64,000 bases of DNA, taken from assembly GCA_021735655.1 (NCBI GenBank), contig JAIPGM010000006.1, positions 36,491 through 100,490 on the forward strand, written 5' to 3'. This DNA is from Candidatus Omnitrophota bacterium (GTDB lineage: Bacteria; Omnitrophota; Gorgyraeia; Duberdicusellales; 4484-171). Shown piece after piece: positions 1-47,491 of this stretch. The notes under the pieces are model-generated. The model made no database searches. It saw only the letters and a program-made list of their open reading frames with translations, and was not told the origin of the DNA. Made by a program: the position numbers and the translations under genes. Positions within the stretch are counted from its first letter, which is position 1. Each line of letters starts with the position of its first letter.

Positions 1-1209
1 TTCTACATGCTTATGCCCTAACAGTTCCTGGACTTCTCGAATATTAACCCCATTCATTAAAAGATGTGTTGCGAAGCTATGCCTGAGAGTATGCACGCTG
101 GCGCGTTTTATAATTCCGGCTTTCTTTACCGCAATAGCTACAATCTTTTGAACTGTATTGGGACTTATATGATGTCTTCGGATTTTACCACTCCTAGGAT
201 CAATTGAAAGTCGAGAAGATGGAAAAGCATACTGCCACCCCCACTCCTTAGCAGCTTTAGAATATTTGTGCTCTAAAGCATTCGGTAGATATACCTCTCC
301 ATAACCGGCAGCTTTATCTTCTTCGAAAATATTCTTAACTTGCTCTAAATGTTTTCTGAGAGAACTACCTAACGCCTGTGGCAGCATAGTGCTACGGTCT
401 TTATCCCCTTTTGCTCCGCGTAAAAATAAAATATTGCTCTCAAAATCAATATCCTGCACTCGCAAGCGCACGAGCTCCATAAGCCGCAACCCTGAACCAT
501 AAAGCAATTGCACAATTAATAAATCTTTATTCCTTAGTTGTTCAAATAACCCTTGTATTTCCTTAACTGACAAAACTGTTGGTAATTTAGGGCCCCGCTT
601 TGCGCGAACGGTTTCAGCTAAATTATTTACTTCTATTTTTAGAACATCTCGAAATAAAAATAAAAGTGCATTAAAGGCTTGGTTCTGGGTCGAAGATGAA
701 ACTCGACCCTCTATAGCTAGATATGTCAAATAATCTTTAACATCTTCTGGGGTTAGCTTCTGAGGATATATCTGCTTTCGCTTTCCTTTATTTAAATAAT
801 CAAAAAATCTCTTTGCCCATGTAACGTATGTCCTTTCTGTGCTATAAGAAAAATGCTTCACTCGAATGGCATTCGTCATTTTCTTTAACAAATCATCAAA
901 ATTAACATCTTCATCTTTAAATCTAGATACTTCGACAGATTTAATCTTATAAATTTGAGGTGGAGCAAAATTGTCTACATATATACTTATCGCTTCTTTG
1001 GCCTGCTGAAATTGCCACTCTTCAATTTTTATAATCTTTAGCTTTTCAAAAAACTTTTCTTTCTGTTCCTCAAGTGATGATTTTGGACGAATACAACAGA
1101 ATTTAAGAAATCTATCTACCCAATAGGCATAAAAAGGGGCTGTTTTTTCTGTAGCTAATTTCTTTGAAATTAAAAATCTTTGAAATTGAGATAACACACC
1201 TATTTTCAT
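1..1209 (-). CDS. intI: Integron integrase (IntI-type tyrosine recombinase), partial: C-terminus including the catalytic Tyr lies beyond the window edge. An alternative shorter start is at 879.
   Basis: Reverse-strand translation reads ...[21 protein letters not shown]...[13 protein letters not shown]...[38 protein letters not shown]...[36 protein letters not shown]. This contains the [12 protein letters not shown] recombinase box. It also contains the IntI-specific extra patch (compare IntI1 [37 protein letters not shown]). The ORF runs off the window at position 1. It is divergent from the cassette array. Confidence 0.8.
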   Translation of the reverse strand, partial: [403 protein letters not shown]

Positions 1210-1415
1210 GACTTTTCTTTCTTTGCCATAAATCCAATGATATACATAATATACATTTCCTGATATTATAGATAAATTACATAATTAAAGCAACATTTTT
1301 CTTCCAAAATCATTAAAAACATGCTAAAATTTTACTATATATATCAATAAAATATAAAAACATATATTATGCATATTAATTGTTAGATGTAAAATAAAAT
1401 GATAAAAGGAGAAAA
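1210..1415. promoter_or_regulatory. attI / cassette-promoter region between intI and the first cassette. Candidate Pc is TTGCCA (1223-1228), 18 nt spacer, TAATAT (1247-1252), reading toward the cassettes. Candidate attI crossover is G|TTAGAT at 1382-1388.
   Basis: AT-rich 200 nt spacer. The 3' end GTTAGATGTAAAAT matches the R' ends of the downstream attC sites (for example GTGTTAGATGTAAAATGAG at 5900). An AAAGGAG ribosome-binding site then precedes ATG 1416. Confidence 0.4.
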
Positions 1416-2699
1416 ATGAAGCAAATTTTGCGCTATTTTTTGGTTTTCTTTTCCCTAATTATATTTTTAAATTTATCTCCTTTTGCTTTTGGACAACAGG
1501 ACCAATCCTCCGGTGATTTTATTGATGGGAATTTTGAAGAAATAGGTCGTCTCAAGAAAGATTCTCAGAAACTTGATACCAGTAAAACCGGCGATCTGTT
1601 TATGGATACATGGATGGGGATATTAACTAGCCCAAAAGAATTTTTTTCTTGGAATACAAAAGGCGATGTCAAACTGGTCTATGATGGGAGTAACACACTG
1701 GTTGAATTGACACAGAGTAAAGAAGGGCCTGCGTCTATAAGCCAATTCTTTGGTTTTAAAAATAAAGATGCGTCAATTGAGTTTGATGTTAAAATTATAA
1801 AGAAAACTACCTCAGATGAATTAGAAGTGACAGTAGCAGATGTGGGTGGGCCTGCCTGGGGTAAACCCCCTGCAATAGAGATTCCGCTGGAGACATTTCG
1901 GCTCTCAACCATTTATCCGACTAAACATATCTCCATTGACCTTTCAAATAGTAAATATTTTTTAGATAAACAAGCTAAAGATGAAGCTAATGATATGGAC
2001 TTAGTTGATGCATCTATTTTTGGTACGATAACTTTTCGCTTGAAGGGAAATGCTGAAGAACCAACAACAATACGATTGGATAACCTTAAGGTTACTTATT
2101 ATAAAAAAGAAGGCGAAGTGAAACGTTATTATAAAGATAATCAGCCGAAGATAGATAAATTCTATAAAGATGGTAAGCAGGAAGGTCTGGAGAAGCGTTA
2201 TTATCGCAATGGACAGTTACAGTCGGAGCACCCATATAGGAATGGTAAACTAGACGGGATACAAAAGTATTATGCTATAGATGGAAAAGTCTGGGAAGAA
2301 ACGCCTTACAGAGACGGCAAGCGAGAGGGAACACAAAGACGTTACAGAAATGGGGTGCTGACGGAAGAAAGATTATATAAAAATGATAAGATGGTAGAAA
2401 TTAAAATTTATTATAAAACTGGTGAAATAAAATCAGAAGCAACGATTAGGAATGATAAGACAGAAGGGTCATCTAAAGAGTATTATAAAAATGGACAAGT
2501 AATGGAAGAACGTATCTATAGCGATAGCCAGAGAGTAGGCGTAACAAAGCATTACTATGCTAACGGACAGCTAAAAGCAGAGATACCTTACAAGAAGGAT
2601 AGAAAAGATGGCATTGCGAGGATTTATAATGAAGAAGGCAACTTAGTAAAAGAAGAAGTTTGGGAAAAAGATAAACTCATAAGTACTAGAGAGAAATAA
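1416..2699 (+). CDS. Cassette 1: secreted protein with about 12 MORN-variant (YwqK-family-like) repeats.
   Basis: N-terminal signal peptide MKQILRYFLVFFSLIIFLNLSPFAFG. C-terminal half is tandem ~23-aa repeats of form YYxNGQlxxEhPYrNGKxdG. Strong AAAGGAG ribosome-binding site. Followed by attC1. Confidence 0.7.
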   Translation: MKQILRYFLVFFSLIIFLNLSPFAFGQQDQSSGDFIDGNFEEIGRLKKDSQKLDTSKTGDLFMDTWMGILTSPKEFFSWNTKGDVKLVYDGSNTLVELTQSKEGPASISQFFGFKNKDASIEFDVKIIKKTTSDELEVTVADVGGPAWGKPPAIEIPLETFRLSTIYPTKHISIDLSNSKYFLDKQAKDEANDMDLVDASIFGTITFRLKGNAEEPTTIRLDNLKVTYYKKEGEVKRYYKDNQPKIDKFYKDGKQEGLEKRYYRNGQLQSEHPYRNGKLDGIQKYYAIDGKVWEETPYRDGKREGTQRRYRNGVLTEERLYKNDKMVEIKIYYKTGEIKSEATIRNDKTEGSSKEYYKNGQVMEERIYSDSQRVGVTKHYYANGQLKAEIPYKKDRKDGIARIYNEEGNLVKEEVWEKDKLISTREK

Positions 2700-2713
2700 A
2701 TATTAAATTACCC

Positions 2714-2788
2714 ATCTAACAAATCAATCCAGCCGACCCTCCCCGCGCGCTGGCGCGCTTGGTCGGGCGGCTGATTTTTGTGTTATCT
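2714..2788 (+). repeat. attC1 (integron cassette recombination site).
   Basis: ATCTAACAAATCAATCCAGCCGACC, then a GC palindrome gcgcgctggcgcgc, then GGTCGGGCGGCTGATTTTTGTGTTATCT. The flanks are imperfect inverted repeats with an unpaired GCG bulge. R'' is ATCTAAC and R' is GTTATCT. Confidence 0.75.
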
Positions 2789-2794
2789 TAAAAA

Positions 2795-3619
2795 ATGAAT
2801 CAAATACAAATGATAATAAACATAGGAATAGGTGTAATATCTGGCTTAATAACCTTCATTGTATGTGAATACATTCTTAAACCATATCTAAACCAAAAAA
2901 TAAATCCTAAAAAAGTTACTAATTTTTTTAGAAGTGGACCATTTTTGTTTGTCTTGGCTGTCCTGATTGCTTTTATCTTAAGTGCCTCCAACCAACAACT
3001 GAGAATGACATTATTTGGCCATGGCTTAGGCTCTTCTACTGTCGTTAGGGAATTAGAAAATTTATATATGTCAATTCCCGAAATGAAGGATGAAATAATT
3101 AAATCATCTGAGGGAAAGTTAAAGGAAAAAGATTTAATTAACTTGTGTCTGCAAGAAAAATTATATTATTTGAAATTAAAGCAAACCGGGAAATATTCCT
3201 ACAAACAAAATAACGCAAAGGAAGCTATTAATTTTTCAGGCAATCATAAAGTATTGTATCCGAATAGTCAGATTTACTCTGAAACAACATATACAAATGG
3301 CGAACGTTTAGATGCAAATTTTAAAGCTTATTATTACAATGGGGTCATTAGAGCAGAAATTATAACCGACAAATCTCAAATGAACGACACCACGAAAATT
3401 GTAAAATATTATTACAACAACGGCAAAATATGGTGCGAATATAGATATCACGACAACAAACACATGACTGGTATTATTTATGACAAGGAAGGTAATATAC
3501 TAGGTAAAGGAAAAGGTCTTTTTCTAGCAATTCTTATACCTGGTTATTTTGAAAAAATCGAAAGACAAGTTTACGACGTGCGCTACAATCCAAATACATT
3601 TTATGATTATGGATTATGA
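2795..3619 (+). CDS. Cassette 2: membrane-anchored protein with MORN-variant (YwqK-like) repeats.
   Basis: N-terminal TM helix. C-terminal repeats YTNGERLDANFKAYYYNGVIRAEI...KYYYNNGKIWCEYRYHDNKHMTGIIYDKEGN. Followed by attC2. Confidence 0.55.
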   Translation: MNQIQMIINIGIGVISGLITFIVCEYILKPYLNQKINPKKVTNFFRSGPFLFVLAVLIAFILSASNQQLRMTLFGHGLGSSTVVRELENLYMSIPEMKDEIIKSSEGKLKEKDLINLCLQEKLYYLKLKQTGKYSYKQNNAKEAINFSGNHKVLYPNSQIYSETTYTNGERLDANFKAYYYNGVIRAEIITDKSQMNDTTKIVKYYYNNGKIWCEYRYHDNKHMTGIIYDKEGNILGKGKGLFLAILIPGYFEKIERQVYDVRYNPNTFYDYGL

Positions 3620-3632
3620 GAAAATTAATAAA

Positions 3633-3705
3633 AGATAACAAAGCAATCCAGCGGACCAATTCCGCCGCTTCGCGGCTCCATTGGCCGCTGATTTCTATGT
3701 TAGAC
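3633..3705 (+). repeat. attC2.
   Basis: AGATAACAAAGCAATCCAGCGGACCAAT ... ATTGGCCGCTGATTTCTATGTTAGAC. Same architecture as attC1, with an extrahelical T in the left arm. Confidence 0.75.
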
Positions 3706-3732
3706 ATAAAAAAATAGAAAATAAGGAGAAAA

Positions 3733-4587
3733 ATGAAAATAAAAGCAAAGGAGCCGTGGTTGGCAGTTTTCTTGAATCGCTTGTTGCCCGGATTAGGGTA
3801 TCTTTACACGAAGAATTTAGTTAGAGCAATTATTGTATTTTTAGTCACCATATCATTAACGTTTATTGCAGTTTCGACATTGATCGCTTTTGCCAAAAAC
3901 GATACGACTGTTACATCCAAAGTATTATGGGGAGTCATTATTTTTGTTGCAGTCAATTTTATATTTAATTTCGCTATCTTGATAGATGGGTATTTGTGTG
4001 CAAGGAAACATAATCTTTCTAATGACGTAAAGCCTTCGCGCATGGGGCTTCGTATTTTTGCTATCATTGGAACTATAGTTTTATTGTTAACTGGAGGTAT
4101 CTCTATTTTTCCGGTTATCTACATAAGAACTCATTTGATACAGTTTTTTAAAATGCCTACCACATCAATGGCTCCAGCGCTAAAACTTAATGATAAAATC
4201 ATGGTAGATAAAAAAGCATACAATAGCAATAAGCCACAAAGAATGGAGATAGTTGTATTTCTTCCTCCTCACGATAATAGAAAGTATTACCTGAAGAGAA
4301 TTATTGGTTTACCAGGAGAAGAAGTGGAAATCAAGGACGGCAAGGTTTATATAAACAACGAGGTCATAACTAATCTATTCGTGACAAATAACTATTATTA
4401 TAATCAGGGTGATTACGCCAAAAAAGGTAAAAAGATAATCGTGCCCCCAAATAATTATTATGTTTTAGGCGACAATAGCGTTTCAAGTTTGGACAGTAGA
4501 TTCTTTGGATTTGTTCCCGAAAAAAATATAACAGGAAAAGTAGTTAAAATATATTGGCCTCCTGAAAGATCAGGAAGAGTTAAATAA
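3733..4587 (+). CDS. Cassette 3: signal peptidase I (S26 family) with an N-terminal multi-TM, TM2-like domain.
   Basis: S26 boxes are present: PTTSMAPAL (catalytic Ser), YLKRIIGLPGEEVEI (catalytic Lys) and GDNSVSSLDSRFFGFV. N-terminus AVFLNRLLPGLGYLYTKN plus 3-4 TM helices resembles a TM2 domain. Confidence 0.7.
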   Translation: MKIKAKEPWLAVFLNRLLPGLGYLYTKNLVRAIIVFLVTISLTFIAVSTLIAFAKNDTTVTSKVLWGVIIFVAVNFIFNFAILIDGYLCARKHNLSNDVKPSRMGLRIFAIIGTIVLLLTGGISIFPVIYIRTHLIQFFKMPTTSMAPALKLNDKIMVDKKAYNSNKPQRMEIVVFLPPHDNRKYYLKRIIGLPGEEVEIKDGKVYINNEVITNLFVTNNYYYNQGDYAKKGKKIIVPPNNYYVLGDNSVSSLDSRFFGFVPEKNITGKVVKIYWPPERSGRVK

Positions 4588-4594
4588 TAAAAAT

Positions 4595-4678
4595 GTCTAA
4601 CAAGTCGATCCAGCGGACTTAAAAGCGCCGCCAATTAAAGCGCAAAGCGCTTTTAAGCCGCTGATCTTGATGTTATGA
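4595..4678 (+). repeat. attC3.
   Basis: GTCTAACAAGTCGATCCAGCGGAC ... GCCGCTGATCTTGATGTTATGA. Conserved flanks and variable palindromic core. Confidence 0.7.
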
Positions 4679-4688
4679 GAAAAATAAA

Positions 4689-5186
4689 ATGAAAAAAATA
4701 AATAAAATTTTCTTTGTTTTAATTTGCGTTCTTTGTTCTGCGCAATTAGCACTTTATGCAGAATATAATTCAACCCTCTTAAAACATCATATACAATTTT
4801 CTCCACCTACCGGTTGGAATCAAATTTCACTTGGCCCTTTTGCCGCAGATATAGAAGGAATTGCATTCCGCAGCCCTGATGAGAAAGCGGTAATTACCGT
4901 ATCCTTGCCCAAAAAAACTAATTTTATTTCGTTTCATGGTGCTCTTATATTATTTCGTTTAAGCAAAAGGCCAAAGGAAGAAAAAATAACATTTTGTGAT
5001 GAGTCATGCTATATTTTTGATTTTGAACAAATCAATAAAAATAATATAAAAGTACTGACAAAAACCTATAAATTTTTAAAGAAAAACAAACTATATACAA
5101 TCAGCTATTATTCATCTCCCAATGAATATCGACAGTATTTACCCGAATTTAAGAAGGCGTTAGCAACGTTTAAAATTATTGAATAA
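4689..5186 (+). CDS. Cassette 4: secreted hypothetical protein.
   Basis: Signal peptide MKKINKIFFVLICVLCSAQLALYA. No recognisable domain. Flanked by attC3 and attC4. Confidence 0.5.
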   Translation: MKKINKIFFVLICVLCSAQLALYAEYNSTLLKHHIQFSPPTGWNQISLGPFAADIEGIAFRSPDEKAVITVSLPKKTNFISFHGALILFRLSKRPKEEKITFCDESCYIFDFEQINKNNIKVLTKTYKFLKKNKLYTISYYSSPNEYRQYLPEFKKALATFKIIE

Positions 5187-5191
5187 ATGTC

Positions 5192-5276
5192 TCATAACAA
5201 AGCAATCGAGCGGACAATCCTCGCCGCTAAATAGAATTCGGGAAAGCTCGGCTTGCCACTCATTTTTATGTTAGAC
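5192..5276 (+). repeat. attC4.
   Basis: TCATAACAAAGCAATCGAGCGGAC ... GCTCGGCTTGCCACTCATTTTTATGTTAGAC. The 3' arm has diverged more than in the other sites. Confidence 0.65.
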
Positions 5277-5288
5277 GAAAATAAAAAA

Positions 5289-5828
5289 ATGATTAAAAAG
5301 ATAATAGTAATTATTTGTTTTAGTTGCATAATCTGTTTAAATTTAGCATATTCTAAATATGTTGACCCAGACGCGATTGTTAGGATAACACGCAAAATTA
5401 CTCAAAGAATTTACAAAGATATAATTTCAATTAAAGACGAGTATGAAGAATTGAAGGGTTTTGATGAAAACTTTTATGGTAAAGGGACGAGATTCCAATA
5501 TCGCATAGTTAGTCCCACAATCGAATATATTTATTGTCCTGGTACATACAATCAATCTTATGAACGAGTTATGGAATTGTATTGCAACCCTCAACCCCCT
5601 GCTATTCATCTAAGGTTAGTATTCCTTAGCGCTCCTTGTGGCACAAACAAGTGCGACATAGTTAGCATTTGTCCGGATGGAATCGAAGCCCAAATTTATA
5701 TCGAAGAAATTGATCGTTATCTAATATTCAGTCAGCGTAGTGGAAATGCTGAGCTTGATACAAAACTTATGGAAATTTTCCGCAAACACACAAAAAAATA
5801 CAAAACAAAAGAAATACCTTGGGAATAG
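5289..5828 (+). CDS. Cassette 5: secreted Cys-containing hypothetical protein. The start is reassigned to ATG 5289; the ORF-track start at 5253 lies inside attC4.
   Basis: MIKKIIVIICFSCIICLNLAYS signal peptide immediately downstream of the attC4 GTTAGAC. In frame with the track ORF. Confidence 0.5.
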   Translation: MIKKIIVIICFSCIICLNLAYSKYVDPDAIVRITRKITQRIYKDIISIKDEYEELKGFDENFYGKGTRFQYRIVSPTIEYIYCPGTYNQSYERVMELYCNPQPPAIHLRLVFLSAPCGTNKCDIVSICPDGIEAQIYIEEIDRYLIFSQRSGNAELDTKLMEIFRKHTKKYKTKEIPWE

Positions 5829-5832
5829 GCTC

Positions 5833-5908
5833 ATCTAACAAGGCAATCCAGCGGACCTTACCTCGGCCCTAACGGGCTTCGGCAAGGCCGCTGATTTTTG
5901 TGTTAGAT
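5833..5908 (+). repeat. attC5.
   Basis: ATCTAACAAGGCAATCCAGCGGACC ... GGCCGCTGATTTTTGTGTTAGAT. Confidence 0.75.
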
Positions 5909-5970
5909 GTAAAATGAGATCACTAGATGAAAAAAATATTTCTATTAACATGCTATTATAGGAGGGGTAT

Positions 5971-6315
5971 ATGAAAAAAATTTTATTGTGGATGGGTTTT
6001 ATAATAAACCTTTTAGCATTCTTAGGTATTGCCTGCTATGGGTCATGGTCTGTTTGGGCTGGAATACTAAGCATTTCTAAATCAGAATATGCAAATATGT
6101 ATATCGTTTTCGGAATAGTTCCTGTTTTAATAAGCATTCCTTTTAATATCTTTATGAATCTTTGCTTGAACTCAATTCTGGATAAGAAGAAAAGATTCCC
6201 AACAAAATGGGTTATTTTTTCCCAATCAATCATATTTATTTTGACACCAATCGCTCTACTTACTGGGATTGCAGATTTAATTTCAGATGCATGGAGTTTT
6301 TTTACACTGCGTTAG
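5971..6315 (+). CDS. Cassette 6: small multi-TM membrane protein.
   Basis: 114 aa with about 3 hydrophobic helices. GGAGG ribosome-binding site. Followed by attC6. Confidence 0.45.
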   Translation: MKKILLWMGFIINLLAFLGIACYGSWSVWAGILSISKSEYANMYIVFGIVPVLISIPFNIFMNLCLNSILDKKKRFPTKWVIFSQSIIFILTPIALLTGIADLISDAWSFFTLR

Positions 6316-6357
6316 ATACCGTGCAAGTAATTAAAATTATTTAGGAAATTAAAAAAC

Positions 6358-6435
6358 TTCTAACAACTCAATCCAGCTGACCCTTTGACTCGGCCTTTCA
6401 GGCCTCGCTCAGGGCAGCTGATTTTTATGTTATGT
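6358..6435 (+). repeat. attC6.
   Basis: TTCTAACAACTCAATCCAGCTGACCC, then GGCCtttcaGGCC, then AGGGCAGCTGATTTTTATGTTATGT. There is an extrahelical T in the left arm. Confidence 0.75.
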
Positions 6436-6477
6436 GAAAATAATAAAAACATTCTCGCACAAAAAAAGGAGGAGAAA

Positions 6478-6831
6478 ATGGACAAGAAAAAAACAGATTG
6501 GACAAAACCAAGCTTGATAATGCTCGGGATTGATGTTCTGGCGCTGTTCATTATGATGATCGTTTTGGGAAATCTTGTTAATAGATTTAATGAATTATAC
6601 AGTCAATTCAGCATTGAATTATCACCTATTGCACAATTTAGCTTAACCGGATATAAAATATTTTTTCTACTGCTTTTAATTGGGCTTTTGGGCAAAGAGT
6701 TTTTGAAAAATAAAAAGGCAACATTCATAATAAATATATCGGCACTAGCTGTTACCCTTTTTATATTTGTGCCTTTTATAATTTTAGGAATATTTTTTCC
6801 TTTGTTTAACTTAACAAGCATGGGGGGATAA
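6478..6831 (+). CDS. Cassette 7: small membrane protein. The start is reassigned to ATG 6478; the track start at 6385 lies inside attC6.
   Basis: AAGGAGGAG ribosome-binding site 6 nt upstream of ATG 6478. Product MDKKKTDW... is 117 aa with 3 TM helices. Confidence 0.5.
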   Translation: MDKKKTDWTKPSLIMLGIDVLALFIMMIVLGNLVNRFNELYSQFSIELSPIAQFSLTGYKIFFLLLLIGLLGKEFLKNKKATFIINISALAVTLFIFVPFIILGIFFPLFNLTSMGG

Positions 6832-6851
6832 ATTTAAAAGTTTTAATAATC

Positions 6852-7026
6852 ACATAACAAGACAATTCAGCCAACCTTCATCCGTTGCCTGTTGGGTTGG
6901 CTGGTATGCCGAACCCTTCATAATAACAAAATGCTTCGCATTTTAAGTATATGGATTCGGCATAGTTCGACTAAGTATTTTTGCTCGCAAAAATGCCAGT
7001 CTCATTAGCTGATTTTTGTGTTATAG
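6852..7026 (+). repeat. attC7, atypically long and composite (about 175 nt).
   Basis: Canonical left flank ACATAACAAGACAATTCAGCCAACC is followed by GGGTTGGCTGG. A roughly 105-nt insert follows, with two extra hairpins (TATGCCGAA...TTCGGCATA and ATTTTTGC..GCAAAAAT). The conserved right flank GCTGATTTTTGTGTTATAG then ends the site. Confidence 0.6.
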
Positions 7027-7049
7027 GAAAATAAAACGGAGGAGTTAAG

Positions 7050-7322
7050 ATGGAAAATGTAAAAAAAATATATAAAGAAGGAGTAGTAAAGGGTGTTCGT
7101 TATTTTGTTATTACATTATGGGTTAATTTTCTATGCATTCCGTTGTACATGATAAAAAATTTCTTTGAGCCAGAGCAGGGATGGAATTTTCAAGAACACA
7201 CGTTATTAATTATTGGTTTCTGTATTCTAGTTGTTGTATATTTACCATTTGCTGTTTATTTGGCATCGAAAAGATCAAACCAACTGAATACTCCTATATT
7301 GAAAACAAATATTTCGATATAA
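7050..7322 (+). CDS. Cassette 8: small membrane protein (90 aa).
   Basis: GGAGG ribosome-binding site. Two hydrophobic helices. Flanked by attC7 and attC8. Confidence 0.45.
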   Translation: MENVKKIYKEGVVKGVRYFVITLWVNFLCIPLYMIKNFFEPEQGWNFQEHTLLIIGFCILVVVYLPFAVYLASKRSNQLNTPILKTNISI

Positions 7323-7327
7323 TATTT

Positions 7328-7402
7328 GTATAACAAGGCAATCCACCTGACCATACTCGCCGCTTTTAGCGGCTCGTCTGGCCGGTGATTTTTGTGTTAT
7401 GT
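7328..7402 (+). repeat. attC8.
   Basis: GTATAACAAGGCAATCCACCTGACC ... GGCCGGTGATTTTTGTGTTATGT. Confidence 0.7.
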
Positions 7403-7413
7403 GAATATAAAAT

Positions 7414-7986
7414 ATGAATAAAATTGACCTTTTATTTATAGTCTGTCTTCTAGCCTTACGTTTTCTACCTAGAAAATCAGCAAAATATAGATACTATTGG
7501 GTGTTTCCTTTATTAGTCTTTTTTTTAGCTATCGGTATCCGAATTAATTCTAAAATCGAGAGTCGGAAACGTTCAGAAAGAATTCAAGAGCTAGAAAGCA
7601 ATCTTAACGCTTTGCGCGATTATAGCTCTATTGCAAAACTTAATATTTTAGGCTTACCTGCTCGTGCAGGTTCAGGCATAAAATTATCTACTCCAATTTC
7701 AACTTCGCTAGAGAATGCAATAATTGAAAAGGATGGCAAATATTTCCCCACGTGCAGCAAGGAAGCGGAAGAAAAATTTAAGCAGACTATAAAATCTTAT
7801 CCACGATTTCCATTTTCATACTATGGCTTAGCCGTCTGTCTCAGGAGTAAAGAAGATGAAGCTTGGAAGGATTACGCAAATCAAGCCATAGAAATATTTA
7901 AAAAAACTATCAGCATTAAAGATCATAATTCTGGGCACGACCAAGCAATGAAAGAATTAATCAGATATTTAGAAGAAATAAATTAA
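7414..7986 (+). CDS. Cassette 9: membrane-anchored hypothetical protein (190 aa).
   Basis: N-terminal TM segments followed by a charged or coiled region. Flanked by attC8 and attC9. Confidence 0.45.
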   Translation: MNKIDLLFIVCLLALRFLPRKSAKYRYYWVFPLLVFFLAIGIRINSKIESRKRSERIQELESNLNALRDYSSIAKLNILGLPARAGSGIKLSTPISTSLENAIIEKDGKYFPTCSKEAEEKFKQTIKSYPRFPFSYYGLAVCLRSKEDEAWKDYANQAIEIFKKTISIKDHNSGHDQAMKELIRYLEEIN

Positions 7987-8003
7987 AACTAGGTAATTAA
8001 AAC

Positions 8004-8085
8004 ACATAACAAAGCAATCCACCTGACCCTCCTCGCGGCTTCCTGAGACCGCGGGCTCGTCGGGCAGGTGATTTTTGTGTTAGGA
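8004..8085 (+). repeat. attC9, the last attC in the window.
   Basis: ACATAACAAAGCAATCCACCTGACCC ... GGGCAGGTGATTTTTGTGTTAGGA. There is an extrahelical T in the left arm. Confidence 0.75.
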
Positions 8086-8156
8086 GGTAAAAATTTACGC
8101 AAAATTTTCTTTCTTTGCCAAGATTAGAATGCTATAATTGTTTTTAGGAGATAACT

Positions 8157-8888
8157 ATGTTCTGGATTTGGATAATGATTATTATGATAGTAATGGCCGC
8201 TGGGGTTGTAACCTTAGCTCTCCTGCCGACCTCTAAAGAATTGGCTTATTTAGAAAAATTACGAAAAATAGCTGATGATTTGCTTTATAGACTAAAAAAC
8301 ACCTTAAGAGAAGCCTGGAAAGAAAAGAAAAAACTTCCACTACCACTTGTAATTTTGGGGGCTGTCTGGATATTGAATGGCTTATATATAAGCATAAGTA
8401 CTTTAATGACCCCTTCTCAAATCACAAAACTAGAGACTCTAGCTGGTATATTCAGGATCTTAAGCATCGGTTGGATTATTATTGGGGTAACTTTATTTAA
8501 CGGCTATATTTTAAGTAGAAAATTTGCCTTTATCGCCGCAGGAATAGTAATTAGCCTTGGTATTGCTGTTATTGCAGTACCACCGCTTACCCAAGAAGAA
8601 TATCTTCTGCAACAATATGAAATATATCTACAAAATCAACAGTATCAACAAAATACTCTAGGAATTAATGAATATGTAACCTCGCGGCTGGTAGATCCTG
8701 GCGAAGGTAGGCCTACGAAAGCTGAGATAACCAAAGAACAAGCTATAGCTATAATCAATATGCTTATTGCCCTGATTACGATACTTTATCTAATTACTCC
8801 GAAAGCTAAAAAATATTTTGGTATCGAAAAGGAGCAATCTTTTTCATTTAAAGAGGGAATTGGTAGTTCATTTCGTCGCTACCGCTAA
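8157..8888 (+). CDS. Multi-TM membrane protein with a Q-rich segment. It is the first gene after the last attC; it may be an attC-less terminal cassette or the chromosomal boundary.
   Basis: 243 aa with several hydrophobic helices and a QQYEIYLQNQQYQQN stretch. No attC follows it. Its 3' end overlaps era convergently by 4 nt. Confidence 0.45.
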   Translation: MFWIWIMIIMIVMAAGVVTLALLPTSKELAYLEKLRKIADDLLYRLKNTLREAWKEKKKLPLPLVILGAVWILNGLYISISTLMTPSQITKLETLAGIFRILSIGWIIIGVTLFNGYILSRKFAFIAAGIVISLGIAVIAVPPLTQEEYLLQQYEIYLQNQQYQQNTLGINEYVTSRLVDPGEGRPTKAEITKEQAIAIINMLIALITILYLITPKAKKYFGIEKEQSFSFKEGIGSSFRRYR

Positions 8889-9814
8889 TCCAACCAGTAG
8901 CCTAATTCTTTTAATATTCGAGGACGTTCTTGCCAATCTTTTAAAACTGTAACCCAAATATCTAAAAACACTTTCTTGCCATATATCTTTCCGATCTCAA
9001 GACGCGACTCAATTCCAACATTTTTAAGTATTTGGCCATTTTTACCGACAACTATTTTTTTCTGAGAATCCCTTTCTACATAAATATTCGCCTTTACGTA
9101 TACGACCTTTTTTTTATCCTTTATTTCAGAAATCTCAACTGCCAAGGAATGCGGTAACTCCTCATCCAACTGTAAAAATAACTTTTCGCGTATTATGTCA
9201 GCAACCCTAAATTTATCAGGAAAATCAGTTAAAGTCTTAACATCGTAATAAGCTTGAGCTACCGGCAAGATTTCCACCAAAACATCTCTCAACTTGTCGA
9301 TATTTTTCCCAGTCTTAGCTGAAAGCGGAATATAATATTCTAAAAAACTATCCTTCCCAGCCTTCTTAGACTTCTCTTCCCACAAAGCCATATAATCATT
9401 AAGGAACTTTACTCCTTTATCCACTTTGTTAAGCACAATTATGGTTTTTACTTTTTGAGTTGTGATAATTTTCATTAGGGTTTCCTCTTCCTGCCCGGGT
9501 TTGCGGGAAAGATCAACCACGTAAATTATTAAATCACACCCTTCAATAGATCTTTTAGCTATCGTATTAAGATGAGAGCTTAGTTTATCTTTAAACGAAT
9601 GGATTCCCGGAGTATCGACAAAAATTGCCTGGGCATCTTTTAAATTCATAATTCCCCTTATTTGATGCCGAGTTGTCTGAGGAATGCTAGACATAATACT
9701 TATCTTATCCCCAACCAAAGCATTAAGGAGCGTTGACTTTCCTACATTCGGACGACCCAAAATTGCTATAAAACCTGATTTAAAATTTTTACTAATCATA
9801 GTTAATCCTTCCAA
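8885..9814 (-). CDS. era: GTPase Era.
   Basis: ILGRPNVGKSTLLNALVG (G1), DTPGIH, NKVD and a C-terminal KH domain. Confidence 0.9.
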   Translation of the reverse strand: MEGLTMISKNFKSGFIAILGRPNVGKSTLLNALVGDKISIMSSIPQTTRHQIRGIMNLKDAQAIFVDTPGIHSFKDKLSSHLNTIAKRSIEGCDLIIYVVDLSRKPGQEEETLMKIITTQKVKTIIVLNKVDKGVKFLNDYMALWEEKSKKAGKDSFLEYYIPLSAKTGKNIDKLRDVLVEILPVAQAYYDVKTLTDFPDKFRVADIIREKLFLQLDEELPHSLAVEISEIKDKKKVVYVKANIYVERDSQKKIVVGKNGQILKNVGIESRLEIGKIYGKKVFLDIWVTVLKDWQERPRILKELGYWLD

Positions 9815-45168: not shown

Positions 45169-46870
45169 TTAAAGCTTCCTCCTTTTTTAAAATATTTAAA
45201 AAATCTACTATCTCCATGCTACCTAAATTCTTCATTCCGCGGCCTCTAAGGGAAATGTTCTTTGACTCCTTTTCCTTATTGCCAACTATAACCATATAAG
45301 GAACTTTCAGTAACTCTTTTTCACGTATCTTCTTCTGCAAAGTCTCATCTTTAATATCGGCTTCGACTCGAAACCCCTCGGCCTTCAGTCTAGCCTCAAG
45401 CTCTAAAGCATAATCCCTTGCTTCTTGAGTAACATTTAAAACGCTTACCTGAACTGGCGCAAGCCACAAAGGAAATTTTCCGGCACAATTTTCAATCACT
45501 GCCCCAAGGAATCTTTCAATGCTTCCCAAAATAGCTCGGTGAATCATTACCGGCCTTTCCTTTGAACTATCCTCACCGATATAAGATAAGTCGAACCGTT
45601 CCGGAAGATTAAAATCAACCTGAACCGTTGGCCCCTGCCAAAGCCTACCCAAAGCATCCTTAAGTTTCACATCTATTTTGGGGCCATAAAACACTCCGGC
45701 CCCCGGATCAATTTCAAAGGGAACTTTCTTCTCGGTCAATGCTTCCTGCAAGATACTCTCGGCCTTATCCCAAGTTGTAGCATTGCCAACAAACTTCTCT
45801 GGACGAGTAGAAAGATTAACTTCATAGTTAAATCCAAACTTCTTCATCGTGTAATCGATAAATTCTAAAACTGAAATGATTTCGCTCTTGAGTTGACCCA
45901 GACGGCAAAAAATATGGGCATCGTCTTGGGTAAAACCTCTAACCCTAAGAAGCCCGTGTAATACCCCCGACTTCTCGTAGCGATAAACCGTCCCCAGCTC
46001 AAAAAAACGAATTGGTAGATCTCGATAACTAACCAACTTACGCTTATAGATAAGAATATGCCCCGGACAATTCATTGGCTTAATAACATAATCCTGCTGG
46101 TCAATCTTCATAAAATACATATTGTCGCGATAGTAGCTGGTATGACCGGAAGTATCAAAAAGATCAATTTTAGCAATATGCGGAATCGAAACTAACTCAT
46201 AGCCTCGCTTAATATTTTCTTTTTTTAGAAACTCTTCAATTAGATTACGTATAATAGCTCCCTTGGGATGGTAGTAAACAAAACCAGCGCCAGCCGATTC
46301 GTGAATAGAAAAAAGATCTAATTCCTTTCCTAATTTGCGGTGGTCGCGTTTTTTAACTTCCTCCAAATTTCTTAAATGAACCTTTAACTCTTTTGGTGTA
46401 TTAAAAGCTACCGCGTAAATTCTCTGGAGAACCGGATTGGTTTCAATTCCACGCCAATAAGCTCCGGCAACCGATAAAAGTTTAAAAGCTGAAATCTTAT
46501 TTGTTGATTCAATGTGCGGTCCACGACAAAGATCCACAAAGTCACCAGTCTTATACAAACTAACCTTGGTATCAGAAATCGCCTCGATAAGCTCAGCCTT
46601 GTAGGTCTCGCCTTTTTCTTTCATCAATCTTAAAGCTTCCTCTTTGCTGAGTTCAAGACGCTCAAAATTATGGTTAGCCTTAATAATCTCCTTCATCTTA
46701 GATTCTATCTTCGGTAGGTCTTCGGGAGTTAACTGTTGCGGTAAATCAAAATCATAATAAAAACCATTTTCGATAGCCGGGCCGATACCAAGTTTAGCTT
46801 CTGGATAAAGCTCCTTTACCGCAGAAGCCATAATATGCGAACAAGAATGTCTAAGTATATTCAAATCCAT
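45149..46870 (-). CDS. thrS: Threonine--tRNA ligase.
   Basis: Zinc and class II motifs HRKLGKELDLF and MIHRAILGSIERF. Upstream of infC. Confidence 0.9.
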   Translation of the reverse strand: MDLNILRHSCSHIMASAVKELYPEAKLGIGPAIENGFYYDFDLPQQLTPEDLPKIESKMKEIIKANHNFERLELSKEEALRLMKEKGETYKAELIEAISDTKVSLYKTGDFVDLCRGPHIESTNKISAFKLLSVAGAYWRGIETNPVLQRIYAVAFNTPKELKVHLRNLEEVKKRDHRKLGKELDLFSIHESAGAGFVYYHPKGAIIRNLIEEFLKKENIKRGYELVSIPHIAKIDLFDTSGHTSYYRDNMYFMKIDQQDYVIKPMNCPGHILIYKRKLVSYRDLPIRFFELGTVYRYEKSGVLHGLLRVRGFTQDDAHIFCRLGQLKSEIISVLEFIDYTMKKFGFNYEVNLSTRPEKFVGNATTWDKAESILQEALTEKKVPFEIDPGAGVFYGPKIDVKLKDALGRLWQGPTVQVDFNLPERFDLSYIGEDSSKERPVMIHRAILGSIERFLGAVIENCAGKFPLWLAPVQVSVLNVTQEARDYALELEARLKAEGFRVEADIKDETLQKKIREKELLKVPYMVIVGNKEKESKNISLRGRGMKNLGSMEIVDFLNILKKEEALSEICKS

Positions 46871-46926
46871 AATGAGACTTATATGCTGAGAACAGCTGTA
46901 GTCGAATTACCTCCTTTATAAAAACA

Positions 46927-46999
46927 TGGGCGGTGTAGGGTTCGAACCCACGACCCTCTCGGTGTAAACGAGATGCGCTTCCAGCTGCGCCAACCGCCC
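46927..46999 (-). tRNA. tRNA-Val (anticodon TAC).
   Basis: The reverse complement reads GGGCGGTTGGCGCAGCTGG...TCTCGTTTACACCGAGA...GGGTTCGAACCC...CACCGCCCA, a cloverleaf with anticodon TAC. Confidence 0.8.
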
Positions 47000-47050
47000 A
47001 TCAATGCCTGTTTATATTACTAAATAATGCAAAAAAATCAAGTATTAAAT

Positions 47051-47491
47051 CTAAGCTCCTGGTATGGCAGTCATACAGAACACCATAACAAAAAGAGCAA
47101 CTGTTTCAATAACCCCTAAAACCATTATATACTGACCAAAGCCTTTCCCGGTTTCAGCTAAAGCATCGCAGGCTTTAGCTCCGGCTTTGCCCTGATAAAA
47201 GGCCGACGCCCCCATAGCCAAGCCTCCTAAAAGCCCGAGGATTAATTGATAAATATAAGTTTCCGGAGGAAGATTGGCTCCGCGAATAGCATTGCGCAAA
47301 ATCATCCCATAGATAGTCTGAGATAAAGGCGCTCCGACAAAAGCAACCAAAATAAAAGGAGCAGCTTTATTCTGGATAAAAGCTCTTTTCCAGGCACCAA
47401 TAGCTGCCATCCCAGCTACTCCGGTTCCTAAAGCCGAACCTACAGCAGCTAAAGTTAAAGAAGCATTCATATCACCAAAACCTTGAATCAT
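47051..47491 (-). CDS. V-type ATP synthase subunit K (proteolipid).
   Basis: Four-TM duplicated c-subunit with the conserved Glu in VIETVALF. Confidence 0.8.
   Translation of the reverse strand: MIQGFGDMNASLTLAAVGSALGTGVAGMAAIGAWKRAFIQNKAAPFILVAFVGAPLSQTIYGMILRNAIRGANLPPETYIYQLILGLLGGLAMGASAFYQGKAGAKACDALAETGKGFGQYIMVLGVIETVALFVMVFCMTAIPGA

What the first reader, a model, noticed from the sequence alone, without database searches (positions are those of the whole stretch)
2714..8085. Highly uniform attC family with conserved extrahelical bases, suggesting a sedentary chromosomal integron.
All nine attCs share nearly identical R and L boxes, while their central stems differ completely. In at least five (attC2, 5, 6, 8 and 9), the left arm carries one unpaired T that the right arm lacks, for example CAGCTGACCCT against AGGGCAGCTG. 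attC1 has a GCG bulge instead. These match the strand-selecting extrahelical bases of folded attC bottom strands. Such homogeneity is what is seen in sedentary chromosomal integrons, which have species-specific attCs like the Vibrio VCRs. Mobile integrons have heterogeneous attCs. The array sits beside core genes such as era, consistent with chromosomal residence.
Basis: partly seen in the sequence, partly recalled or inferred. Interest (0 to 1): 0.55.

Follow-up and report, generated by a model that had tools for sequence, protein, structure and literature searches.

The report
Omnitrophota chromosomal integron, canonical attC sites
This is a genuine nine-cassette integron (a gene-capture system) in the chromosome of an uncultured Omnitrophota bacterium, with textbook recombination hairpins. 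It is an ordinary new member of a well-known system, and its site type is shared by many lineages, not specific to one species.

Summary
Nine attC sites lie at 2714-8085, all on the + strand, directly downstream of an integron integrase gene (1-1209, minus strand) and an attI junction (G1382|T1383).

All nine share one geometry in register:
- a 7-nt R box
- a 5/5-nt unpaired spacer
- a 3-bp stem
- a bulged bottom-strand G (position 16; A in attC7)
- a 6-bp covarying stem
- a bulged bottom-strand T (position 23)

This matches attCaadA7.

Each cassette's R'' is complementary to its own 5' junction, which is the signature of cassettes inserted as circles.

Two other divergent Omnitrophota lineages carry integron remains at the same era|nitroreductase junction. 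One has attI, three cassettes and a 25-codon intI remnant. The other has a single cassette.

"Species-specific, VCR-like" is not supported. Full-length identity between sites is only 71%. Equally good matches to this attC type occur in 47 assemblies labelled as many phyla.

Verdict: a new member of a known kind, of low to moderate interest.

The parts
1..1209 (-). intI, integron integrase. The start codon is at 1209-1207. The last 47 codons, including the catalytic Tyr, lie beyond the left edge of the window. The full gene is 450 aa in L001:6128-7477(-).
   Evidence: - TIGR02249 integron integrase scores 366 bits against a cutoff of 265, over aa 107-402.
- It aligns to VchIntIA (2A3V) with E 2e-71 over aa 113-423, including the IntI-specific insertion [37 protein letters not shown].
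- L001 is identical to the window over 14,587 nt.
880..1209 (-). Extra N-terminal domain of IntI (aa 1-~85, followed by a variable linker). It appears to be a second SAM-like four-helix domain.
   Evidence: - Weak Pfam SAM_4 hit at 24.7 bits.
- Conserved in all listed 415-490-aa homologues.
- The AlphaFold model is a four-helix bundle with pLDDT about 90.
- The best Foldseek hits are the N-domains of IntI, XerA and Cre, but all have E >= 0.06.
1210..1382 (.). Spacer between intI and attI, holding candidate promoters. The attI crossover lies between G1382 and T1383.
   Evidence: - The junction GTTAGATG is complementary to R'' of attC1 over 8 nt.
- The spacer is conserved at the nucleotide level in at least 13 integrons of this IntI clade.
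- Consensus promoter matches: + TTGCCA-16-CATAAT (1223-1250), + TATACA-17-TATTAT (1241-1269), and - TTTACA-16-CATAAT (1393-1366).
1383..2782 (+). Cassette 1: ORF 1416-2699 (a secreted MORN_2-repeat protein) plus attC1 (2714-2788).
2783..3699 (+). Cassette 2: ORF 2795-3619 (weak MORN_2 hit) plus attC2 (3633-3705).
3700..4672 (+). Cassette 3: ORF 3733-4587 (S26 signal peptidase with an N-terminal membrane extension) plus attC3 (4595-4678).
4673..5270 (+). Cassette 4: ORF 4689-5186 plus attC4 (5192-5276). This attC is degenerate, with one mismatch in the 6-bp stem.
   Evidence: (z -0.86)
5271..5902 (+). Cassette 5: ORF 5289-5828 plus attC5 (5833-5908).
   Evidence: A 37%-identical homologue sits in another Omnitrophota array, L028.
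5903..6429 (+). Cassette 6: ORF 5971-6315 plus attC6 (6358-6435).
6430..7020 (+). Cassette 7: ORF 6478-6831 plus attC7 (6852-7026). This attC is an aberrant 175-nt site. Its first bulge is A rather than G, and it holds a unique 105-nt internal segment at 6904-7008.
7021..7396 (+). Cassette 8: ORF 7050-7322 plus attC8 (7328-7402).
   Evidence: A roughly 93%-identical attC follows an unrelated ORF in L020.
7397..8079 (+). Cassette 9: ORF 7414-7986 plus attC9 (8004-8085).
8157..8888 (+). Terminal membrane-protein gene (243 aa) with no attC, between the last attC and era. Its origin is unresolved: it may be a cassette that lost its attC, or an unrelated insertion.
   Evidence: - No attC follows it. 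Its stop overlaps the era stop.
- It is absent from the relatives.
- In L043 the last attC abuts the era stop directly.
8885..9799 (-). era (GTPase Era), the core gene that forms the right boundary.
   Evidence: - NF000908 scores 337 bits against a cutoff of 237.
- The closest homologues are all Omnitrophota, at 72% identity or less.

Best explanation
This is a complete chromosomal integron of an uncultured Omnitrophota bacterium.

**How it most likely works.** IntI, transcribed leftwards, recombines the folded bottom strand of an attC hairpin with attI at G1382|T1383. Circular cassettes insert there in one orientation, downstream of an outward-facing promoter in the intI-attI spacer. IntI can also excise cassettes by attC x attC recombination.

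**The attC sites.** They are of the short two-bulge type. They have an R box, a 5/5-nt unpaired spacer, a 3-bp stem, extrahelical G16, a 6-bp stem, extrahelical T23 and a variable stem-loop. Both bulges sit on the arm opposite the AAC triplet of the bottom strand. In characterised integrons this arrangement makes the integrase choose the bottom strand, and so fixes cassette orientation.

**History.** The platform has sat between era and a nitroreductase gene since before several Omnitrophota lineages diverged. It has decayed in some of them. The uniform arms of the sites reflect a widespread attC type used by this integrase clade, not a species-private repeat.

**Shown versus inferred.** Shown: anatomy, folding, covariation, junction complementarity and locus conservation. 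Inferred: current recombination activity, promoter use and strand choice.
For: - **Integrase.** TIGR02249 scores 366 bits against a cutoff of 265. The protein aligns to VchIntIA 2A3V with E 2e-71, including the IntI-specific insertion and the R, K, HxxR, H and Y motifs.
- **attC geometry.** All nine sites are in register. Bottom-strand T23 is present in 9 of 9, G16 in 8 of 9, and the 6-bp stem is perfect in 6 of 9. These are the positions given for attCaadA7 by Nivina et al. 2016.
- **Folding.** z <= -3.8 for six of the eight short sites. The bottom strand is more stable than the top strand in 7 of 9.
- **Covariation.** 89% of cells pair, eight pairs show compensatory change, and no shuffle out of 500 reaches the score.
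- **Junction test.** The reverse complement of each R'' matches the bases after G|TT at the start of its own cassette for 6-9 nt in 9 of 9 cassettes. It matches the in-array R' for only 4-5 nt in 8 of 9.
- **Cassette form.** Each cassette holds one + strand ORF, with a 12-68-nt leader and 4-42 nt between the stop codon and the attC.
- **Strand asymmetry.** The model scores 71-83 bits on the + strand and 10-26 bits on the reverse strand.
- **Chromosomal context.** Core genes flank both sides, and the window is collinear with a relative over about 50 kb.
- **Same locus elsewhere.**
  - L043 reads nitroreductase, a 25-codon intI remnant (64% identity, E 6e-8), an attI region 80% identical in nucleotides, three cassettes, then the era stop.
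  - L073/L074 hold one cassette with a family-type attC (47.8 bits, E 5e-9) between era and nitroreductase.
Against: - No direct evidence of recombination exists. There are no strain variants and no circle-junction reads. The nearest other IntI is only about 60% identical.
- attC4 folds poorly and attC7 is aberrant.
- The terminal gene at 8157-8888 has no attC.
- One relative (L072) has an empty era|nitroreductase junction and keeps its own integron elsewhere. A later gain in a sub-clade, or repeated insertion at a hotspot, is therefore not excluded.
- The promoters are consensus matches only.
- With nine sites, the array fails the operational size criterion for sedentary integrons.
Confidence: 0.9

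Rival explanations
1. The attC family is species-specific and VCR-like, generated within this species' own sedentary integron. Its uniformity alone would mark the integron as sedentary.
For: - Seven of nine sites match one strict arm pattern.
- Arm identity within the array (0.82) exceeds that of nearly all other arrays holding this type (0.62-0.74; only the short L044 contig is higher, at 0.84).
- This would fit a lineage that makes, or preferentially keeps, cassettes of this type.
Against: - Sites in 47 other assemblies are detected by the family model, many at 72-83 bits, the same range as the window's own sites. Forty-three foreign sites are as close to the window's sites as those are to each other.
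- attC8 is about 93% identical, central stem included, to a site in a Planctomycetia-labelled MAG that follows an unrelated ORF.
- Full-length identity is 71% and central regions are near random. VCRs, by contrast, are conserved along their whole length (established knowledge).
- Ghaly et al. 2021 report that attCs cluster by environment rather than by host phylogeny.
Confidence: 0.12
2. The integron is recently acquired or mobile, and merely happens to lie in the chromosome.
For: - Only nine cassettes are present.
- Cury et al. 2016 classed about 67% of chromosomal integrons as mobile in species with pan-genomes.
- The array GC content (0.34) is lower than that of the flanks (0.38).
- L072 has an empty site at this junction and an integron elsewhere.
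Against: - There is no transposase, plasmid or phage gene in the 6 kb to the left or in the syntenic roughly 50 kb to the right.
- The junctions with both flanking genes are tight: the intI stop overlaps the nitroreductase start.
- Integron remains sit at the identical junction in L043 and L073/L074, whose flanking proteins are only 60-75% identical to the window's.
- It is not a class 1 integrase (NF011946 scores 249 bits against a cutoff of 435).
Confidence: 0.08
3. The array is a fossil. The platform is intact in sequence but no longer recombines, and the cassettes are now fixed ordinary genes.
For: - intI decay is common in this clade. L043 keeps only a remnant. The complete chromosome CP070807 has arrays with an attI region or an intI fragment but no full intI in the stretches held.
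- attC4 and attC7 are degenerate.
Against: - The 450-aa intI ORF is uninterrupted and has all the catalytic motifs.
- Seven of nine attCs keep near-perfect geometry.
- Compensatory changes argue for continued selection on the structure.
Confidence: 0.2
4. The repeats are not attC sites. They are generic intergenic palindromes (REP-like elements or terminators) that happen to lie next to a tyrosine recombinase.
For: They are GC-rich hairpins that sit after stop codons in an AT-rich genome.
Against: - The terminator scan, run only on 1100-1500, found none.
- The inverse core sites RYYYAAC and GTTRRRY are fixed, and the two bulges are in canonical register.
- Each R'' is complementary to its own cassette's 5' junction.
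- All sites lie on one strand, only in the array, and none elsewhere in 64 kb.
- The adjacent gene passes the integron-integrase model.
Confidence: 0.01

Closest known systems
Short two-bulge attC sites of mobile integrons, type example attCaadA7
   Same: - R'' RYYYAAC, a 5-nt unpaired central spacer on each arm and a 3-bp stem.
- Extrahelical G at position 16, a 6-bp stem, extrahelical T at position 23 and a short variable terminal structure.
- Total length is 73-85 nt (compared with the description in Nivina et al. 2016).
   Different: - These sites are in a chromosome of an uncultured Omnitrophota bacterium, not on a transposon or plasmid.
- The cassettes carry no resistance genes.
- The arm sequence is a distinct type (TAACAA-NN-CAATCCAGC ... 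GCTGATTTTTGTGTTA).
Vibrio cholerae chromosomal integron and its VCR attC sites
   Same: - It is a chromosomal integron whose integrase is homologous to VchIntIA (E 2e-71).
- The attC sites in one array resemble each other more than those in typical arrays do.
   Different: - VCRs are about 120+ nt, have three bulges, and are conserved along their whole length. Their arrays reach well over 100 cassettes (Loot et al. 2017, and established knowledge).
- Here there are nine cassettes, 71% full-length identity and unrelated central stems.
- The attC type is shared across many phylum labels.
[quoted passage not shown]
Xanthomonas chromosomal integrons (a small array at a fixed chromosomal locus, with frequent intI decay)
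   Same: - The array is small. Loot et al. report up to 22 cassettes, with bottom strands on the lagging-strand template, for Xanthomonas.
- The platform is held at one conserved chromosomal junction across diverged lineages. Cassette content is lineage-specific and intI has been lost in some lineages. Established knowledge of Xanthomonas integrons supports the parallel, and the abstract of 10.1101/2025.06.18.660453 (listed) reports integrons in 93% of Xanthomonas genomes.
   Different: - The phylum, the insertion locus (era|nitroreductase) and the integrase clade all differ. This clade has an extra N-terminal domain.
- The attC type is not confined to the host taxon. Xanthomonadales-like attCs were 99.4% confined to Xanthomonadales (Ghaly et al. 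2021).
attC types shared across phyla and domains in environmental metagenomes (Ghaly et al. 2021, 2022)
   Same: - Near-identical or same-type attCs occur in MAGs labelled as different bacterial phyla and as Nanoarchaeota or Thermoplasmata.
- This matches the reports that attCs cluster by environment, and that archaeal attCs can be 95-100% identical to bacterial ones.
   Different: - Those studies did not list Omnitrophota (no occurrence of the name in either paper).
- Part of the taxonomic spread seen here may be a binning artefact. One contig appears under two phylum labels (L004=L009 and L005=L053).

Membership tests
Integron (IntI + attI + attC cassette array) | A tyrosine recombinase of the IntI family that carries the integron-specific additional segment | tested here: met
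   - TIGR02249 scores 366 bits against a cutoff of 265.
- The alignment to 2A3V covers the insertion.
- The catalytic Tyr lies just outside the window but is present in the identical contig L001.
Integron (IntI + attI + attC cassette array) | attC sites with inverse core sites R'' RYYYAAC and R' GTTRRRY and imperfect internal symmetry | tested here: met
   Nine of nine sites have them. Pairing and covariation are well above the controls.
Integron (IntI + attI + attC cassette array) | Extrahelical bases on the R''-L'' arm of the folded bottom strand, with G in the L box and a conserved T 6 bp further in | tested here: met
   G16 is present in 8 of 9 sites (A in attC7) and T23 in 9 of 9. The 6-bp stem between them is perfect in 6 of 9. 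The definition is from Nivina et al. 2016.
Integron (IntI + attI + attC cassette array) | Cassettes are circularly permuted units joined at G|TT, so each R'' pairs with the bases at its own cassette's 5' end | tested here: met
   The matched run is 6-9 nt with the cassette's own start junction in 9 of 9. It is 4-5 nt with the in-array R' in 8 of 9.
Integron (IntI + attI + attC cassette array) | attI next to intI, divergent from the array, with a promoter reading into the cassettes | tested here: inconclusive
   - The position and the GTTAGATG junction fit.
- The spacer is conserved in at least 13 related integrons.
- The promoters are consensus matches only.
Integron (IntI + attI + attC cassette array) | IntI-catalysed attI x attC and attC x attC recombination of the bottom strand | not testable with these tools
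   This needs a conjugation or excision assay, or reads spanning circle junctions.
Sedentary chromosomal integron | Located in the chromosome and not inside a mobile element | tested here: met
   Core genes flank both sides. The region is collinear with relatives, and no mobility genes appear in the flanks examined.
Sedentary chromosomal integron | Vertically inherited: the same locus is occupied across related genomes (100% of the species in Cury et al. 2016) | tested here: inconclusive
   - The same junction holds integron remains in L043 and L073/L074.
- It is empty in L072 and unclear in L075.
- No genomes of the same species were available.
Sedentary chromosomal integron | A large array (more than 19 attC sites in Cury et al. 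2016) | tested here: not met
   There are nine attC sites. The criterion is quoted.
Sedentary chromosomal integron | attC sites highly similar along their whole length and characteristic of the host taxon | tested here: not met
   Arm identity is 82% but full-length identity is 71%, and the centres are near random. The same type occurs in 47 other assemblies under many phylum labels.
Mobile integron classes 1-5 | A class-defining integrase, or carriage on a transposon or plasmid | tested here: not met
   The IntI1 equivalog model NF011946 scores 249 bits against a cutoff of 435. There is no transposon or plasmid context. Classes 2-5 were not individually modelled.

The most novel reading that the evidence does not exclude
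The window may hold one representative of an undescribed, ancient integron lineage of Omnitrophota and PVC-type anaerobes. Three features define it:
- An integrase with a duplicated N-terminal core-binding (SAM-like) domain.
- A nucleotide-conserved intI-attI spacer holding three copies of an 11-nt motif (two direct, one inverted). These copies co-vary from integron to integron, as cognate protein-binding sites would.
- A characteristic attC arm type.

On this reading the extra domain reads the attI motifs, much as arm-binding domains do in other tyrosine recombinases. This lineage would also be the main source of the cassettes of this attC type that turn up in arrays of many other phyla, including DPANN archaea.
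Probability: 0.25. Interest if true: 0.5.

Novelty: new member of a known kind. Interest (0 to 1): 0.3.

Why it matters
For integron biology this is mostly confirmation. The canonical attC geometry worked out in Vibrio and class 1 integrons (G16, a 6-bp stem, T23, a 5-nt spacer) is kept base for base in a deeply branching, uncultured phylum. This supports the view that structure, not sequence, is what the integrase reads.

It also gives a clean example of how to judge whether an integron is sedentary in a MAG. attC uniformity was misleading here, because the type is shared across many taxa. Synteny with diverged relatives gave the real evidence: the same junction occupied, intI decayed, and cassette content entirely different.

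The side observations could define a distinct integron class worth an experiment. They are the extra N-terminal domain and the co-varying attI motifs.

Tried and rejected
- **Rfam.** At gathering thresholds it found only two tRNAs. This says nothing for or against the sites.
- **Shared cassettes.** A tblastn of all ten array proteins against 75 related loci found one distant homologue only (cassette 5 against L028, 37% identity). Cassette content is therefore not shared, even where attCs are nearly identical.
- **attC7 insert.** I searched for further copies of the 105-nt segment, on the idea that it is a MITE with a TTRGCTG duplication. No copy was found in the window or in any held locus, so the idea is unsupported.
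- **L075.** I looked for an attC or attI remnant around the NYN gene at the era|nitroreductase junction. There was no covariance-model or nhmmer hit, so it is left undecided.
- **L073.** A possible attI remnant (TTAATTG) next to nitroreductase was seen by eye in the sequence, but nhmmer does not detect it. I do not claim it.
- **Repeated 16-mer.** TTTTCTTTCTTTGCCA occurs at 1213 and 8105. I considered a duplicated promoter or attI flank and found no model that fits. Chance is not excluded.
- **GCG bulge in attC1.** Rejected; it has the ordinary T bulge.
- **Searches not run.** I did not run the metagenome scan or a third protein-database search, because no close relative of this IntI exists in 5.8 billion proteins.

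Full report
**What is at 2714-8085**

The region holds nine imperfect palindromes, all on the + strand. Each follows a single + strand ORF. Counted from R'' position 1 to R' position 7 they are 2714-2788, 3633-3705, 4595-4678, 5192-5276, 5833-5908, 6358-6435, 6852-7026, 7328-7402 and 8004-8085.
- The left-arm motif TAACAANNCAATCCAGC and the right-arm motif CTGATTTTTGTGTTA each occur nine times here. Elsewhere in the 64 kb they appear only as 2-3-mismatch chance hits. No dinucleotide shuffle out of 100 reached the observed counts.
- A covariance model built from eight of the sites, run with filters off over the whole window, returns those eight at 71-83 bits. Their reverse strands score 10-26 bits. 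There is one weak hit inside attC7 and nothing else credible.
- The repeats are therefore real, strand-specific and confined to the array.

**Surroundings**

Upstream, on the minus strand, lies an integron integrase gene at 1-1209, cut by the left edge of the window.
- It scores 366 bits on TIGR02249 against a cutoff of 265.
- It aligns to the Vibrio cholerae integrase structure 2A3V with E 2e-71. The alignment includes the integron-specific segment [37 protein letters not shown].
- An independently assembled contig, L001, is identical to the window over 14,587 nt. It supplies the missing C-terminus with the catalytic tyrosine.
- The protein is 100% identical to an NCBI entry named integron integrase from a Candidatus Omnitrophica MAG.

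To the right of the array lies era, which scores 337 bits against a cutoff of 237. Its nearest homologues are all Omnitrophota.

**Structure of the sites**

I anchored every site on the AAC of R'' and the G of R' and read the arms in register. All nine show the following:
- R'' at positions 1-7.
- A 5-nt unpaired spacer on each arm.
- A 3-bp stem at positions 13-15.
- An unpaired base at 16. It is C on the top strand, so G on the bottom strand, in eight sites. In attC7 it is T/A.
- A 6-bp stem at 17-22, perfect in six sites and with one mismatch in attC4, attC7 and attC8.
- An unpaired base at 23. It is A on the top strand, so T on the bottom strand, in all nine.
- A continuing stem, in eight of nine.

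Nivina et al. 2016 describe the same layout for attC sites. G lies within L'' at position 16, a conserved T lies at 23 or 24, a 6-bp stem between the two is needed for efficient recombination by IntI1, and the spacer is five to six bases.

Free folding of the bottom strands as DNA recovers this structure in seven of nine sites. Z-scores are -3.8 to -6.1 for six sites, -2.2 for attC9 and -0.9 for attC4. The bottom strand is the more stable one in seven of nine.

The 6-bp stem is not identical between sites. It covaries: CAGCGG/CCGCTG, CAGCCG/CGGCTG, CAGCTG/CAGCTG and CACCTG/CAGGTG. On the drawn structure 89% of cells pair, against 29-47% when the partners are slid. Eight pairs change on both sides, and no shuffle out of 500 reaches the covariation score.

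- It occurs in all nine sites.
- attC1 has it too, and has no GCG bulge.
- The G16 bulge was missed.

**Are these real cassettes?**

In an integron the crossover is G|TT. The bases after GTT at a junction therefore belong to the next cassette, and should pair with that cassette's own R''. I tested this.
- The reverse complement of R'' matches the junction at the start of its own cassette for 6-9 nt in nine of nine cassettes.
- It matches the R' that follows it in the array for only 4-5 nt in eight of nine.
- The first cassette pairs with the attI junction GTTAGATG over 8 nt. This places the attI crossover at G1382|T1383.

Each cassette has one ORF, a leader of 12-68 nt and 4-42 nt between the stop codon and the attC. 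Together with the integrase, this leaves no room for the REP-element or terminator rival.

**Is the family species-specific?**

No. An exact-pattern scan of one genome per species (GTDB representatives) found 70 stretches. Sixty of them, from 47 assemblies, contain sites that the window-derived model detects at E < 0.001, and many score 72-83 bits, the range of the window's own sites.
- Twenty-two of those assemblies are labelled Omnitrophota.
- The rest are labelled Planctomycetia or Pirellulales, Verrucomicrobiota, Aminicenantales, Stahlbacteria, Cloacimonadota, Zixibacteria, Desulfobacterota, Paceibacterota, Nanoarchaeota and Thermoplasmata.
- Ten stretches had no model hit and are chance pattern matches.
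- Forty-three foreign sites are at least as similar to the window's arms as those arms are to each other (0.82).
- One site in a Planctomycetia-labelled MAG is about 93% identical to attC8 including the central stem, yet follows an unrelated ORF.

Two caveats apply.
- The labels are MAG bins. One contig appears under both Omnitrophota and Desantisbacteria (identical hits in L004/L009 and L005/L053).
- The other arrays were ascertained with a model built from this window.

Even so, the picture fits published work. attCs cluster by environment rather than host phylogeny, and identical attCs cross phyla and domains.

Within the window, full-length pairwise identity is 71%. The central parts are 61% identical, against 52 +/- 6% for shuffled partners. 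This is far from the whole-length conservation of VCRs.

This array is more uniform in its arms (0.82) than nearly all the other arrays carrying the type (0.62-0.74). The one exception is a 2-kb contig at 0.84.

**Is it sedentary?**

By the operational criteria of Cury et al. 2016 it cannot be classed. Those criteria are presence in all genomes of the species, or more than 19 attC sites. This array has nine sites, and no genome of the same species is available.

Synteny gives better evidence. In the closest available relatives (Era 70-72% identical) the gene order is aminotransferase, transglutaminase, PilZ, era, nitroreductase, tRNA-U5 methyltransferase, AMP-ligase and onwards. In the window genome the same genes flank the integron. 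The whole 9-kb element therefore sits exactly between era and nitroreductase. The occupancy of that junction in the relatives is:

| Locus | State of the era\|nitroreductase junction |
|---|---|
| L072 | Empty: era stop, 4 nt, nitroreductase ATG |
| L073/L074 | One ORF followed by a family-type attC (47.8 bits, E 5e-9) abutting era, in the window's orientation; no intI |
| L043 | Nitroreductase start, 25-codon intI remnant, attI region, three cassettes, era stop |
| L075 | One NYN gene; no attC or attI detected |

L043 is a fourth lineage, whose flanking proteins are 60-75% identical to the window's. Its details are:
- The intI remnant reads AIKRAGIVKETTVHTVRHSFVTYLL. It is 64% identical to IntI 360-384, with E 6e-8.
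- The attI region is 80% identical in nucleotides to window 1241-1387.
- Each of its three cassettes has an R'' that fits its own start junction, read from the sequence.
- The R' TTA of the last attC is the complement of the era stop codon.

Integron material at the same junction in three of five lineages of this depth is most simply explained by long residence with decay. I put this at about 0.75. Repeated insertion at a hotspot is the alternative.

Integrons in this group are not immobile on longer timescales. L072's contig carries its own integron between the V-ATPase c subunit gene and thrS. Its IntI is 56% identical, and at least five attCs are detected. In the window those two genes are adjacent, with only a tRNA gene between them.

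**Orientation**

The + strand has negative GC skew across the whole window except in the array, and most neighbouring genes are on the minus strand. If the usual rules hold, the attC bottom strands lie on the lagging-strand template. Loot et al. 2017 found this orientation only in small sedentary arrays of up to 22 cassettes. This is an inference from a 64-kb window.

**Anomalies inside the array**
- **attC4** has a mismatch in the 6-bp stem and does not fold canonically.
- **attC7** is 175 nt long and has A rather than G at the first bulge.
  - It has an alternative proximal partner, GGTTGGCTG (6895-6903), that pairs with L'' without a bulge.
  - It has a unique 105-nt segment (6904-7008) with its own hairpins. 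No other copy was found.
- **The gene at 8157-8888** lies between the last attC and era and has no attC. It has no counterpart in the relatives.

**Side observations on the platform**
- All close homologues of this IntI are 415-490 aa long and cover the N-terminus.
- The first ~85 residues are conserved. They give a weak second SAM_4 hit.
- They model as a four-helix bundle with pLDDT about 90. Its best structural matches are the N-terminal domains of IntI, XerA and Cre, but none is significant (E >= 0.06).
- NCBI's gene call starts at an internal Met, giving 340 aa.
- The intI-attI spacer is conserved in nucleotides across at least 13 integrons.
- The spacer contains three copies of an 11-nt motif that differ between integrons but agree within each one. 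In L031, for example, sites A and C are both AGATTCCGTAT and site B is its inverse.
- A full-text search for 'integron integrase' together with 'N-terminal extension' returned only two papers, neither on this IntI clade (judged from titles and abstract openings). Searches for integrons in Omnitrophica or Omnitrophota returned only incidental mentions.

**Verdict**

This is an integron with canonical strand-selecting bulges, it is chromosomal, and it is probably an old resident. Its attC type is a widely shared environmental type, not a species-private, VCR-like family. It is a new member of a known kind. IntegronFinder would be expected to find it, and NCBI already names the integrase. Interest is low to moderate, and is raised slightly by the locus-conservation result and by the uncharacterised N-terminal domain and attI motifs.

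Noticed in passing
window 880-1209 (-), IntI aa 1-110: The integrase has an extra N-terminal domain of about 85 aa, followed by a variable linker, ahead of the canonical IntI. All listed 415-490-aa homologues share it. It gives a weak second SAM_4 hit and models confidently as a four-helix bundle that resembles recombinase core-binding domains. NCBI's gene call (340 aa) starts at an internal Met and omits it.
   Followed up: partly
window 1210-1390 (motif sites 1246-1256, 1277-1285 inverted, 1364-1374): The intI-attI spacer is conserved at the nucleotide level in at least 13 integrons of this clade. It holds three copies of an 11-nt motif that co-vary between integrons. In L031, sites A and C are identical at 11 of 11 positions. 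These may be cognate integrase-binding sites.
   Followed up: partly
L043:1-1700 (-), Omnitrophota MAG JAMXCX010000037.1: A second lineage has an integron at the same junction. It reads nitroreductase, a 25-codon intI remnant, a conserved attI region, three cassettes, and a last attC whose R' overlaps the era stop codon.
   Followed up: yes
L073:10931-11700 (-), and the same in L074: A single cassette sits between era and nitroreductase with no integrase gene. It is a PilW-like ORF followed by a short family-type attC (47.8 bits).
   Followed up: yes
L076:5034-10952; empty counterpart at window 46870-47060: A relative carries its own integron between the V-ATPase c subunit gene and thrS. Its IntI is 56% identical, and its cassettes include TIR and NYN genes. 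In the window these two genes are adjacent, with only a tRNA between them.
   Followed up: yes
window 6852-7026 (insert 6904-7008): attC7 is 175 nt long. It has an alternative proximal L' (GGTTGGCTG at 6895-6903) and a unique 105-nt internal segment flanked by TTGGCTG and TTAGCTG. No other copy was found in any held sequence.
   Followed up: partly
window 8157-8888 (+): A 243-aa membrane-protein gene lies between the last attC and era, with no attC of its own. Its stop codon overlaps the era stop codon. It is absent from all the relatives examined.
   Followed up: partly
window 1213-1244 and 8105-8136: A 32-nt direct similarity (81%), with an exact 16-mer TTTTCTTTCTTTGCCA, occurs next to the intI start and just after attC9 (family D20). 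It is unexplained and may be chance.
   Followed up: no
L020:47-122 (-), against window 7328-7402: An attC about 93% identical to attC8, central stem included, sits in a Planctomycetia-labelled MAG behind an unrelated ORF. The L020 copy has the perfectly paired CACCGG where attC8 has the mismatched CACCTG.
   Followed up: partly
L004/L009 and L005/L053: Contigs JACQZH010000043.1 (labelled Omnitrophota) and JACQWU010000206.1 (labelled Desantisbacteria) give identical model hits. They appear to be the same sequence binned into two phyla, which warns against trusting taxon labels on cassette contigs.
   Followed up: no
window 1383-8079 against the rest of the window: The cassette array is the only stretch with positive GC skew, and it reads opposite to nearly all neighbouring genes. 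This suggests that the attC bottom strands are on the lagging-strand template. Array GC is 0.34 against 0.38 for the flanks.
   Followed up: partly
L013, L049, L069 (CP070807.1, a closed 1.82-Mb Omnitrophota chromosome): This genome has at least two attC clusters about 140 kb apart. One has a conserved attI region but no full intI in the stretch held. The other has only a 56-aa intI fragment.
   Followed up: no
L075:11800-12030: A GC-rich, apparently structured non-coding stretch of about 230 nt lies upstream of nitroreductase in a relative. It was not identified.
   Followed up: no
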